Positions 24,001 through 27,000 of a DNA stretch of 64,000 nucleotides are shown here, piece after piece (position 1 is the first letter of the stretch; the number at the start of each line of letters is the position of its first letter). The position numbers are program-made. This stretch comes from Malacoraja senta. Its lineage: Eukaryota. The stretch is taken from assembly GCA_038087875.1 (NCBI GenBank), contig JAXLNO010004385.1, forward strand, positions 62,001 to 126,000, read 5' to 3'.

Positions 24001-27000
24001 CAAACTCTGTAAAGACAAGCACCCGTAGTTAGTAACAAACCCAGGTCTCTGGCGCTGTAAGGCAGTAGCTCGACCGCTTCGCCACCCTGTTCTACAACGT
24101 GGGTATCAGTAAATTGTCTGGCAACGTGCCTCTTAGATGGAACCAGTGGGTAGGAAGTGCAAGTGAAAGATAAATATTGTACCAGTGTCCTTTATCCACA
24201 GTCATATAGATATTCAGGAAATGGAGGAATATGTATCTTGGTCTTATGTTTAGCACCGACCTTGTGGCCTGAAGGGTCTGTTGCTGAACTGATCAGAAAC
24301 CCAATCAGATTCTCTATTTGCCTCTATTACTCCTTGGGATGGTGACATTCAATTTCCAACAGTTCTCTATTTGAAGAACTTCTTCCTCCCATTCCCTCTT
24401 GGAATATTTAGTGTTATTATTCAGCAGAGATTCATGAACAGGTAGAAGCAATCATGTCTACAGTATCAATCCCAATGGTGAGTTATACTCCTCCATTGGG
24501 CCTGCATTCCCCTTTCATCTGTGCTGTCAGTTAAAGTCTGGAGCTAAGATAAGGAGCATGTCAGTGATATTAAAGCTAAATGTTTTGTTGTTTTGCCAGA
24601 AATGCAAAATGAAAAGAGAAAAGGCTGTAAACTTTGTGCAAGATAGAACTGCAGATGCTGGTTTACACTGAAGATAGAAGATGTTGGTGTAACTCAGTGG
24701 GTCAGATAGCATCTCTGGGCATTCCTTCTCTCCAGAATGCTGCCTGACCTGCTGAGTTATTCCAGCATTTTGGGTCTAGGCTGAAAACTTAGTTCAGCCA
24801 GAGAAAAAACTCTGATTGGGAAAGTGGTGAGTTGCAGTGATCTTACAATTGAAGGCTTTTGTTCATGTCTTCACTGATTCTGACTCTTCTTACACTTGCA
24901 GAAACCCCTGAGGTGTTTATTGGGATTAAACGTGATGGGTCGCAATCACTGAGACTCTCCTGCCTTGTCACAGGCTTCTAGCCACGGGCCATCGATGTAA
25001 CGTGGCTGAGAGATGGTGAGGGGGTCCATGAGTCTGAATCCAGTGATCTGTTGCCCAATTGGGATGGGACTTACCAGCTGAAGAATACAATTCAACTGAA
25101 TAGAGAAGATGTGGCAAAATTCTCCTGTTACATCGAACATGCAACTCTGCTGCAGGGAGTCAATGTTCCACAGGGTAAGTGGCAAGTCAATGAGGCTGAT
25201 CACTTGAGACCATAAACCTCCTGGACTGAGATAACAGTCTCAACTCACACTCTTAACTAAGCTGTGGATTTAGACTTTAGGCTTTAGAGATATGCTGCAG
25301 ATACAGGCCCCTCAGCTCACTGAGTCCTCGCTGAATAGTGATCAACCCATACATTTACACTAACCTACACAGTACGGACAATTTACAATTTTACCTAAGC
25401 CAAGTAACCTACAAACCTGTATGTCTTTGTAGTGTGGGAGGAAACCCACGCAGTCACAGGGAGAACATACAATGTCCTTGCAGACAGCACCTGTAGTCAG
25501 GATCAAACCCAGGTCTCTGGTGCAGTAAGGCAGCAGCTCTACCGCTACGCCACTGTGCCACCCATTATTAATTTGTGGTTATCTAATTGCTCATAATTAT
25601 TGATAGTCAATGGAATGTGGTTTTAGTTTAAGAGATACAGCACAGAAACCGGCCCTTCAGCCCACCGAGTCTGCGTCAACCAGCGATCCCTGCACACTTA
25701 CATTATCTTACTTATTAGGGGACAATTTACAATTATACCAAGCCAATTAACCTACAAACCTGTATGTCTTTGGACTGAGTGAGGAAACCGGAGATCCAGG
25801 CAAAACCCACGCAAGTCCCGGGGAGAAGGTACAAAACTCTGTACAGACGGGACCCGTAGTCAGAATTGAACCGGGTCTCTGGCGCTGTAAGGCAGCAGTT
25901 CCACCTAGTGGGCAAAGCAGAGCCAAATGGAATACAGTGTAGCAAGTGTCTGGTTTTACATTTTGGCAGTCGGAATAAAGACATAGACTATTTTCTAAAT
26001 GGGGAGAGAATTGAGAAACCTGAGCTACAAAGTGGGAGTACTAGTGCAGGATTCCCAAATAGTTCATTTGCAGATTGAGTCAGTGGTAAGTAAGGCAAAT
26101 GCAATGCCAGCATTCATTTCGGGGGGCGTAGAATATAAAAACAATGATATAATGCTGAGGATTTATCGGGCACTGGTGAAGACACATTTGGAATATTGTG
26201 AGCAGTTTTGGGCTCCATATTAGAAAGGATGTGCTGGCTTTGGAGAGGGTCGAGAGGATGTATGTCCTGGGGATGATTGATTTAACGTATGAGGAGTGTT
26301 TGAAGTCTCTGTGCCTGTGCTCATGGGATTTAGAAGGATGAGGTGGGAATCTCATTGAAACCTACCAGCAGGGCCGGATTTAGATGAAGAGAGGCCCTAA
26401 GCTGTTCCACTTGTGAGGCCCCCCCCCAATCCCCCACCCCCACGACCAGAGGAAGATGGTCCACCAGATTGACACCGATTTGCAGCCGAGCGTGGCCAAT
26501 GAGATAAGGGGCTGGAAAGCTGGGCTTTATTTATTTATTTATTGCCACTGCTAGTGTCGAGTTATTGGCTTAAAACACTATTATTCTGAAATGGAGGGCA
26601 AGGAAAATTACTGAAGTGTTGTTTAGAGACTACAGTGCATTGTGACAGCATATGTAAGAAAGGCCTATGACAGTGTCAAAAATATTATACACCTTGCAGG
26701 GCTCTCACTTAATTTTTTTTCTCTGTTGTCAGCCGGGCAACCTTGGTAGCTTTTTAAGTTGCCAAATGACAGTTTAGGTGGTTATTTAAGATGGCTTGCA
26801 TGACACGTGCGATAATGTGCTCGGACGACCAGTCAGAATTATGCTCAATGAAGCATTCACATATTATTTCTGCTTCAAATAAAGCCACAAACTAAACATA
26901 TTCACCAATCAGGACATGATATATACCACAATGACATGCAGCACAATTATAATACTGTATCTTAACTCTTTTTACACGTTGCAATGAATGCAATTTCTAT

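What the first reader, a model, noticed from the sequence alone, without database searches (positions are those of the whole stretch)
24979..24981. Single nonsense codon in alpha3 (GF*P for GFYP) in an otherwise clean gene; exon skipping would give an alpha3-less receptor
Leader, alpha1 and alpha2 are fully open with intact splice sites, and alpha3 keeps both Cys and the Trp, so the Tyr>TAG change looks recent or polymorphic. All exons are phase 1, so skipping the 273-nt alpha3 exon would give an in-frame alpha1-alpha2-TM protein. That is the architecture of EPCR and ULBP/RAE-1-type molecules (established for those families; inference here). Otherwise the transcript is an NMD target.
Basis: partly seen in the sequence, partly recalled or inferred. 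Interest (0 to 1): 0.65.

Follow-up and report, generated by a model that had tools for sequence, protein, structure and literature searches.

The report
Stop codon in skate MHC-I gene
A skate immune gene of the MHC class I family, otherwise complete and well conserved, carries one stop codon in its third outer domain, so this copy is most likely a recently disabled version, which is an ordinary event in this gene family.

Summary
TAG at 24979-24981 is in frame in a 273-nt alpha3 exon (24902-25174) and replaces the Tyr of GFYP. That Tyr is kept in 12 of 12 elasmobranch relatives.

The gene is a five-exon nonclassical MHC class I gene from a skate-like genome, not human. Its exons are leader 17427-17478, alpha1 21417-21677, alpha2 23416-23697, alpha3, and TM/tail 33024-33244. 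Every other exon is open and the splice sites are canonical.

The best match is Leucoraja erinacea XP_055486430 (94-95% in alpha1/alpha2, 88% in alpha3). Since the split from that protein, the window gene has 9 private changes against 10, so there is no sign of decay.

Most likely this is a real, recent nonsense mutation: a null allele or young pseudogene. Its mRNA should be degraded, because the stop lies 193 nt before the last junction. A base-call error cannot be excluded without reads.

Skipping exon 4 is in frame, but that holds for any class I gene, and nothing here supports it. This is an ordinary, low-interest finding.

The parts
17427..17478 (+). Exon 1: start codon, 17-residue signal peptide and the first base of the junction codon; donor G|gtaagc
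   Evidence: A script scan for ATG plus a phase-1 GT donor gave this as the top candidate (score 55 against 29 for the next) when compared with the leader of the sawshark relative P0006. Sequence read and translated.
21417..21677 (+). Exon 2: alpha1 domain, 261 nt, phase 1 at both ends; acceptor attgcag|AT, donor CGA|gtaagt
   Evidence: sequence. Pfam MHC_I at E 1.4e-5, 25.2 bits, below the 28.3-bit cut-off. PDB 9ch4_A at E 2.4e-22; 94% identical to P0001.
23416..23697 (+). Exon 3: alpha2 domain, 282 nt; acceptor cctcag|CC (alternative AG 6 nt downstream), donor GAG|gtacac
   Evidence: Pfam MHC_I at E 2e-16; 95% identical to P0001. Searches show that relatives carry the two extra residues (T-P-A-I/V) that only the 23416 acceptor provides.
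24902..25174 (+). Exon 4: alpha3 (C1-set Ig) domain, 273 nt, phase 1 at both ends; acceptor cacttgcag|AA, donor CAGG|gtaagt
   Evidence: C1-set at E 6.1e-15; 88% identical to P0001.
24979..24981 (+). In-frame TAG in place of the Tyr of the GFYP motif; the only stop in the five coding exons
   Evidence: Tyr is present in 11 of 11 aligned relatives and in P0012, which reads AFYP.
33024..33244 (+). Exon 5: connecting peptide, transmembrane stretch, basic anchor and cytoplasmic tail, open to TGA at 33242-33244; acceptor ccaacag|AG
   Evidence: It aligns colinearly with the C-terminus of P0001 and of the rays. A GT at 33158 could be a donor, but the Leucoraja model reads through it.
31031..33012 (-). 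Tc1/mariner-type transposon in intron 4 with 224-nt inverted ends and TA at both ends; its right end lies 11 nt upstream of the exon 5 acceptor
   Evidence: arms 31029-31252 and 32791-33014, 95% complementary; sequence. HTH_Tnp_Tc3_2 at E 3.8e-26 and DDE_3 at E 1.7e-11, in two different frames, so the transposase is frameshifted.

Best explanation
This is a real germline single-base change, a Tyr codon (TAC or TAT) turned into TAG, in exon 4 of an otherwise intact nonclassical MHC class I gene of a skate. The haplotype in the assembly is therefore a null allele or a very young pseudogene. With normal splicing the mRNA carries a premature stop 193 nt upstream of the last exon junction. It should therefore be removed by nonsense-mediated decay. 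Any protein made would be leader, alpha1, alpha2 and 25 residues of alpha3. It would lack the second Ig cysteine, the rest of the domain and the membrane anchor. Shown: the stop, its frame, the intact remainder of the gene, conservation of the Tyr, and the absence of excess protein change. Inferred: that the base is real, that the transcript is degraded, and that no functional product results.
For: The stop is in frame in a C1-set exon. Tyr is kept in 12 of 12 relatives from skate, rays, sawfish and sharks, and in the closest solved structure 9ch4_A and in MR1 (alignments). The other four exons are open with GT/AG sites. There is no second alpha1, alpha2 or alpha3 exon in the 64 kb that could substitute: in tblastn of 8 relatives, only the five exon hits had E < 0.01 (for the window's own exons). 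Relative rate of window against Leucoraja P0001, with Pristis as outgroup: 9 against 10 private residues in 334 columns, chi-square 0.05. Against Mobula and Hypanus the window is not faster: 26 v 31, 26 v 33, 26 v 24, 22 v 29, 21 v 31, 22 v 31, 25 v 23 and 23 v 28 with four shark outgroups. No protein in the 5.8-billion set equals the window's own exons (best 94%, 95% and 88%), so no annotated protein product of this locus is on record there. The 193-nt distance from the stop to the junction is well beyond the 50-55 nt rule for NMD, which is established knowledge from mammals and only inferred for a skate.
Against: A single third-position substitution is all that separates this from a working gene, and reads, a second haplotype and other individuals could not be inspected, so a base-call error remains possible. 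The lineage is conserved across sharks and rays, which argues that loss should be costly. The window and Leucoraja sequences are faster than the sawfish (29 v 18, 31 v 18, 32 v 13 and 29 v 11; chi-square up to 8.1), although Mobula shows the same excess over the sawfish. dN/dS could not be computed because no orthologous DNA is available in these tools. Whether transcripts exist is unknown.
Confidence: 0.65

Rival explanations
1. Assembly or base-call error, or a somatic change in the sequenced tissue: the true germline codon is TAC/TAT and the gene is a normal working nonclassical class I gene.
For: Everything else about the gene is intact. Protein change is no faster than in the Leucoraja counterpart. 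The lesion is one base at a third codon position.
Against: The site (ggcttcTAGccacgg) is not in a homopolymer or simple repeat, the contexts where assembly errors concentrate (general knowledge, not tested). Disabled copies are common among nonclassical class I genes (general knowledge). Nothing in the window can test this directly.
Confidence: 0.17
2. An older, decaying duplicate: skates carry two or more copies of this gene, the window holds the redundant one, and the stop is one step in a longer decay while an intact copy sits elsewhere in the genome.
For: Leucoraja erinacea has two models on different contigs. The second, P0002, is an odd model that reads through sequence matching the window's introns (22657-22728 and 24800-24903). 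P0002 also has 9 private differences in alpha3, one of them a deletion. The window shares H and S in the stretch VHESESS with P0002 and not with P0001. A Tc1 element ends 11 nt from the exon 5 acceptor.
Against: The window has the fewest private alpha3 changes of the three skate sequences (4, 6 and 9). It is identical to P0001 over 43 of 43 alpha2 residues where P0002 has 2 changes. Its overall rate equals that of P0001. There are no frameshifts and no splice-site losses. Orthology among the three sequences is unresolved.
Confidence: 0.1
3. The allele is functional through exon 4 skipping, whether constitutive or triggered by the nonsense codon. The product would be a membrane-anchored alpha1-alpha2 molecule without alpha3.
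For: Joining 23697 to 33024 keeps the frame (g + ag = GAG). A natural alpha3-less splice form of a class I-like gene exists in humans, MR1B (listing and abstract starts of PMC7508857 and bioRxiv 10.64898/2026.10.17.759879). MR1 is the nearest mammalian match to this lineage by sequence.
Against: In-frame skipping is a generic property of phase-1 Ig-superfamily exons. Exon 4 has good-looking sites (pyrimidine-rich tract plus cag|, and |gtaagt). Alpha3 is retained in 12 of 12 relatives. No transcript evidence was available. The one alternative form seen in a relative (Chiloscyllium isoform X2, P0011) uses an internal acceptor that in the window would lie just upstream of the TAG, so it would not bypass the stop.
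Confidence: 0.04

Closest known systems
Elasmobranch nonclassical MHC class I genes that NCBI annotates as 'major histocompatibility complex class I-related gene protein-like' (e.g. Leucoraja erinacea XP_055486430.1 = P0001; also Pristis, Mobula, Hypanus, Heptranchias, Scyliorhinus, Chiloscyllium, Cetorhinus, Mustelus and Pristiophorus)
   Same: The exon-by-exon domain order is the same. Identity to P0001 is 94%, 95% and 88% in alpha1, alpha2 and alpha3. Lineage motifs are shared, among them the conserved N-S-T site and the four Ig and platform cysteines. The TM/tail is colinear.
   Different: The window copy has TAG where all of them have Tyr. It also has a 3-residue gap in the tail relative to P0001 and the rays. 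I could not settle which published letter name this lineage carries (UDA, UFA or UGA, the single-copy lineages named in PMC12562908 and PMC10751288). The two J Immunol papers that define those lineages are not held.
PDB 9ch4 chain A ('Ig-like domain-containing protein', 268 aa); second, 8gm8 chain A ('MHC class I protein')
   Same: 9ch4_A is the closest solved structure by sequence: window alpha1 at E 2.4e-22 and the sevengill shark relative P0009 at 241 bits over its whole ectodomain. It also has GFYP at the aligned position.
   Different: It is clearly a different lineage, at roughly half identity in the printed alignment. The tool gives no organism or ligand. No paper naming the entry turned up: 18 papers hold one of the strings, and the 10 listed are unrelated by title.
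Mammalian MR1 and its MR1B splice form
   Same: MR1 chains are the best mammalian matches to alpha2 (E about 7e-17), which explains the automatic name.
   Different: This is not an MR1 orthologue. In the alignment, the Lys that I take to be the ligand-binding Lys43 of MR1 (numbering recalled) aligns with Thr in P0009. Ala stands at the same place in the window. No skipped transcript is known here.
EPCR, ULBP/RAE-1 (alpha3-less MHC-like proteins)
   Same: Only the hypothetical skipped product would share their alpha1-alpha2 architecture.
   Different: Those genes have no alpha3 exon at all and have evolved to fold without it or beta2-microglobulin (recalled knowledge). This gene has a conserved alpha3 exon. 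No sequence match to those families appeared or 24 at the thresholds used.
Null alleles and pseudogenes of MHC class I genes
   Same: A single premature stop in an otherwise intact class I gene is a well-known kind of event in this birth-and-death family (recalled general knowledge).
   Different: Here it affects a low-copy lineage that is conserved across sharks and rays rather than a member of a large, fast-turning cluster.

Membership tests
MHC class I heavy chain (nonclassical, elasmobranch lineage) | Alpha1 and alpha2 domains matching the MHC class I platform | tested here: met
   Alpha2: Pfam MHC_I at E 2e-16, 60.5 bits (cut-off 28.3). Alpha1: E 1.4e-5, 25.2 bits, below the cut-off, but PDB class I-like chains match down to E 2.4e-22.
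MHC class I heavy chain (nonclassical, elasmobranch lineage) | Membrane-proximal C1-set Ig domain with two Cys and the Trp | tested here: met
   C1-set at E 6.1e-15 with X at the stop. Cys, Trp and Cys are present. The domain is interrupted by the stop.
MHC class I heavy chain (nonclassical, elasmobranch lineage) | One domain per exon, phase-1 junctions, leader and TM exons | tested here: met
   Exons of 52, 261, 282 and 273 nt, each ending in phase 1, and an exon 5 that enters in phase 1. Exon 5 has a hydrophobic stretch followed by a K/R run, read by eye; no TM predictor was run.
MHC class I heavy chain (nonclassical, elasmobranch lineage) | Uninterrupted reading frame (a working member) | tested here: not met
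   TAG at 24979-24981.
MHC class I heavy chain (nonclassical, elasmobranch lineage) | Association with beta2-microglobulin; a bound ligand | not testable with these tools
The fold of a shark relative was unusable (pLDDT 35.6).
MR1 proper | Ligand-binding lysine in alpha1 (Lys43, numbering recalled) | tested here: not met
   In one search the MR1 Lys in '...trqkepr...' aligns with Thr of P0009. The window has Ala at that column.
Long-standing pseudogene | Several disabling lesions and faster protein change than functional relatives | tested here: not met
   One stop only. There are 9 v 10 private changes against P0001, and the window is not faster than Mobula or Hypanus. dN/dS was not computable.
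Alpha3-less MHC-like receptors (EPCR, ULBP/RAE-1; MR1B-type isoform) | Mature product lacks alpha3 | not testable with these tools
   The gene has a conserved alpha3 exon with consensus-looking splice sites. Only transcript data could show skipping. In-frame skipping was verified arithmetically.

The most novel reading that the evidence does not exclude
The stop is real, and this skate has naturally lost, or carries at appreciable frequency a knock-out of, a low-copy nonclassical class I lineage that sharks and rays have otherwise kept. In the bolder version, the nonsense codon drives exon 4 skipping and the allele makes an MR1B-like alpha1-alpha2 membrane protein. That would be a natural intermediate on the route by which alpha3-less MHC-like receptors arise.
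Probability: 0.05. Interest if true: 0.6.

Novelty: new member of a known kind. Interest (0 to 1): 0.22.

Why it matters
If real, the allele is a natural knock-out of an old elasmobranch nonclassical class I lineage whose function is unknown. Individuals homozygous for it could show what the molecule is needed for. For annotation, the locus should be marked as a pseudogene or null allele, not given an alpha3-less protein model. Beyond that, single stops in class I genes are routine.

Tried and rejected
1. Lineage name. I tried to assign one of the published letter names UDA, UEA, UFA or UGA. The two defining papers, PMC7002201 and PMC8454915, are not held. PMC10751288 (passages; section 9) and PMC12562908 (passages) give copy number and linkage but no sequence features. 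PMC9586880 (passages) had nothing relevant.

2. PDB entries 9ch4 and 8gm8. Searches found no paper describing them. In one search, 10 of 18 hits were listed and all were unrelated by title.

3. Structure route. I folded the sevengill shark relative P0009 with a 9-row alignment in order to run a fold search. The result was mean pLDDT 35.6 and pTM 0.26. It was unusable, so no fold search was run.

4. MHC linkage from neighbouring genes. The 62 stop-to-stop frames of 110 aa or more look like transposon remnants. Of the 9 sent to Pfam, 5 matched transposon-type domains and 4 matched nothing. No host gene was recognised, so linkage could not be judged.

5. A substitute alpha3 exon. None was found. 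The weak hits at 25911-26060 (E 0.2-0.9) lie in a repeat.

6. Rescue by cryptic splicing. The TAG creates a new AG after a pyrimidine-rich run, but using it removes 80 nt and shifts the frame. The internal AG at 24972-24973 is in frame but leaves the TAG in place. Both were read and not scored.

7. Other scans. Rfam gave 0 matches at gathering score.

8. Not done. dN/dS was not computed because no elasmobranch DNA collection is available; genome contigs holds bacteria and archaea only and was not used.

Full report
**What is there**

The window is 64 kb with no N. It is rich in transposon remnants of the kind seen in sharks and rays, and I do not take it for human.

On the + strand lies one MHC class I-like gene of five coding exons:
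- Leader: 17427-17478.
- Alpha1: 21417-21677.
- Alpha2: 23416-23697.
- Alpha3: 24902-25174.
- Connecting peptide, transmembrane stretch and tail: 33024-33244.

Pfam gives these results:
- Alpha2: MHC_I at E 2e-16.
- Alpha1: MHC_I at E 1.4e-5, which is 25.2 bits and below the 28.3-bit cut-off.
- Alpha3: C1-set at E 6.1e-15, read with X at the stop.

All introns begin GT and end AG. The junction codons read GAT, ACC, GAA and GAG.

I built, searched and folded no joined model. As a result there is no full-length identity figure, no full-length fold and no whole-CDS statistic.

**The observation**

TAG at 24979-24981 is in frame and reads GF*P. It is the only stop in the five exons.

One detail differs. 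Relatives carry two residues at the start of alpha2 that only an acceptor at 23416 supplies. That makes the exon 282 nt, with a second AG 6 nt downstream.

**Relatives**

Three exon-wise searches of the 5.8-billion protein set were run:
- Alpha3: 8 proteins among 25 candidates.
- Alpha2: 8 among 18.
- Alpha1: 7 among 34.

Together they give 12 distinct proteins, all from elasmobranchs:
- Two from the little skate Leucoraja erinacea (XP_055486430.1, partial, and XP_055486496.1).
- One each from Mobula, Hypanus, Pristis, Cetorhinus, Heptranchias, Scyliorhinus torazame, Chiloscyllium and Mustelus.
- Two from Pristiophorus.

NCBI names them 'MHC class I-related gene protein-like'. That name is automatic.

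The best match, P0001, is 94%, 95% and 88% identical in alpha1, alpha2 and alpha3. No hit equals the window's own exons, so no protein model of this locus is in that set. The source is therefore a skate or a close relative of one. Whether it is another species or another copy cannot be told here.

The Tyr replaced by the stop is present in 11 of 11 aligned relatives and in the twelfth, Mustelus, which reads AFYP. The closest solved structure and MR1 also have it.

**Is the gene decaying?**

I aligned each exon separately with the relatives. P0012 was fetched later and is not in these alignments.

Stretches where gene models are plainly mis-built were dropped. These were P0002 and Pristiophorus-2 in alpha2, and the first part of Chiloscyllium isoform X2 in alpha3. 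They were left out of the count of columns invariant in the other species and of the tests.

Window against Leucoraja P0001, with sawfish as outgroup: over 334 columns the window has 9 private residues (the stop counted) and P0001 has 10, chi-square 0.05.

Tests, each with four shark outgroups, window or first-named sequence listed first:

| Comparison | Private changes |
|---|---|
| Window v Mobula | 26 v 31, 26 v 33, 26 v 24, 22 v 29 |
| Window v Hypanus | 21 v 31, 22 v 31, 25 v 23, 23 v 28 |
| Window v sawfish | 29 v 18, 31 v 18, 32 v 13, 29 v 11 (chi-square up to 8.1) |
| P0001 v sawfish | 31 v 19, 32 v 21, 30 v 15, 30 v 12 |
| Sawfish v Mobula | 14 v 29, 12 v 33, 12 v 28, 9 v 34 |

So the window is not faster than Mobula or Hypanus. 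It is faster than the sawfish, but P0001 and Mobula are too, which makes the sawfish the slow one.

Among the three skate alpha3 sequences, private differences number 4 in the window, 6 in P0001 and 9 in P0002, one of the nine being a deletion.

I see no frameshift and no lost splice site. On this evidence the stop is recent relative to the split from the Leucoraja sequence, or it is not real. dN/dS could not be computed because no orthologous DNA is within reach.

**Consequences of the stop**

With normal splicing the stop lies 193 nt upstream of the exon 4/5 junction. That is far beyond the 50-55 nt limit of the NMD rule, which is established for mammals and only inferred for a skate.

A translated product would end after 25 residues of alpha3. 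It would lack the second Ig cysteine and the membrane anchor.

Three possible escapes were read from the sequence and not scored:
- The new AG made by the TAG follows a pyrimidine-rich run, but using it as an acceptor removes 80 nt and shifts the frame.
- The internal AG at 24972-24973 corresponds, judged from the protein, to the acceptor used by Chiloscyllium isoform X2 (P0011). It is in frame but leaves the TAG as the third codon.
- The context TAG-CCA is not one I know to favour read-through (recalled).

**The exon-skipping idea**

Joining 23697 to 33024 gives GAG and keeps the frame. That is true of class I genes in general. Exon 4 has good-looking sites on both sides, and alpha3 is conserved in all relatives.

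The idea is not absurd. Human MR1 makes an alpha3-less form, MR1B; I saw only the listing and abstract starts of PMC7508857 and of bioRxiv 10.64898/2026.10.17.759879. But nothing in the window speaks for skipping, and transcripts could not be examined. EPCR and ULBP/RAE-1 resemble only the imagined product.

**What lineage is it?**

By sequence the closest solved structure is PDB 9ch4 chain A:
- Window alpha1: E 2.4e-22.
- Sevengill shark relative P0009: 241 bits over the ectodomain.

MR1 chains come next, which explains the NCBI name. The window's alpha1 also matches 8gm8 chain A at E 2.6e-12.

It is not MR1. The Lys I take for MR1's ligand-binding Lys43 (numbering recalled) aligns with Thr in the shark relative and Ala in the window.

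Published work names the elasmobranch class Ib lineages:
- UBA and UEA are multicopy.
- UDA, UFA and UGA are single or low copy.
- UFA and UGA are described as CD1-like lipid binders.
- All are reported as MHC-linked.

These statements come from PMC10751288 (passages and section 9) and PMC12562908 (passages). A low-copy lineage shared by sharks and rays fits UDA, UFA or UGA. I could not decide which, because the defining papers are not held and supplements are closed.

**Other points**

A Tc1/mariner element lies in intron 4:
- It spans 31031-33012, with 224-nt inverted ends that are 95% complementary.
- TA is present at both ends.
- Its transposase is split over two frames.
- Its right end is 11 nt upstream of the exon 5 acceptor, so the native tract upstream of that acceptor now lies 2 kb away.

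The element carries a nested tRNA-Ala-like sequence and a broken transposase, so it is probably not new. The exons show no excess change, so it seems to be tolerated. Whether exon 5 is still spliced correctly is untested.

**Verdict**

| Reading | Confidence |
|---|---|
| Real, recent nonsense mutation: null allele or young pseudogene of a conserved nonclassical class I gene | 0.65 |
| Base-call error | 0.17 |
| Older redundant duplicate | 0.10 |
| Functional alpha3-less product by exon skipping | 0.04 |

This is a new member of a known kind, and interest is low.

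Noticed in passing
window 31031-33012 (intron 4): A Tc1/mariner-type element with 224-nt inverted ends, TA at both ends and a frameshifted transposase. Its right end is only 11 nt upstream of the exon 5 acceptor (33023), so it displaces the native branch-point and pyrimidine region by about 2 kb.
   Followed up: partly
window 32628-32702, - strand: ARAGORN calls a tRNA-Ala (GGC)-like sequence inside the Tc1 element. It is probably a tRNA-derived SINE fragment nested in it.
   Followed up: no
window 24955-24981: The TAG itself creates a new AG after a pyrimidine-rich run (ctctcctgccttgtcacaggcttctag), which looks like a 3' splice site. 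Using it would remove 80 nt and shift the frame. This was read and not scored.
   Followed up: partly
window 24972-24973; protein P0011: Chiloscyllium isoform X2 joins alpha2 directly to GFYP. This implies an internal acceptor equivalent to the AG at 24972-24973, an in-frame loss of 24 codons that include the first Ig cysteine. In the window this form would still meet the TAG.
   Followed up: partly
window 23414-23422: Two AG acceptors lie 6 nt apart at the start of the alpha2 exon (cctcag|cccc ag|). Homology favours the upstream one, and both are in frame.
   Followed up: partly
proteins P0001 and P0002 (Leucoraja erinacea); window 22657-22728, 23698-23723 and 24800-24903: The little skate has two models of this gene on separate contigs. 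P0002 lacks alpha1 and half of alpha2 and reads through sequence matching the window's introns. P0001 is partial and carries 12 extra residues, of which the first eight resemble a read-through past the alpha2 donor. In the window the same read-through hits TGA after 8 codons.
   Followed up: partly
window 17258-17263, 17284-17288 and 17368-17424: Upstream of the leader there are a TGACGA and an ATTGG about 20 nt apart. They resemble the X2 and Y boxes of MHC promoters (recalled consensus, by eye, could be chance). A short upstream ORF ends 2 nt before the start codon.
   Followed up: no
window 33026-33241: The cytoplasmic tail lacks three residues present in P0001 and the rays.
   Followed up: partly
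window 1-1041 (-), 8506-9108 (+), 52208-53071 (-): These are transposon-type ORFs: a GDSL-esterase domain frame (E 2.6e-13), a hAT dimerisation domain (E 1.8e-9), and a weak GIY-YIG match (E 3e-4, below the cut-off). No host gene other than the class I gene was recognised in the 64 kb.
   Followed up: partly
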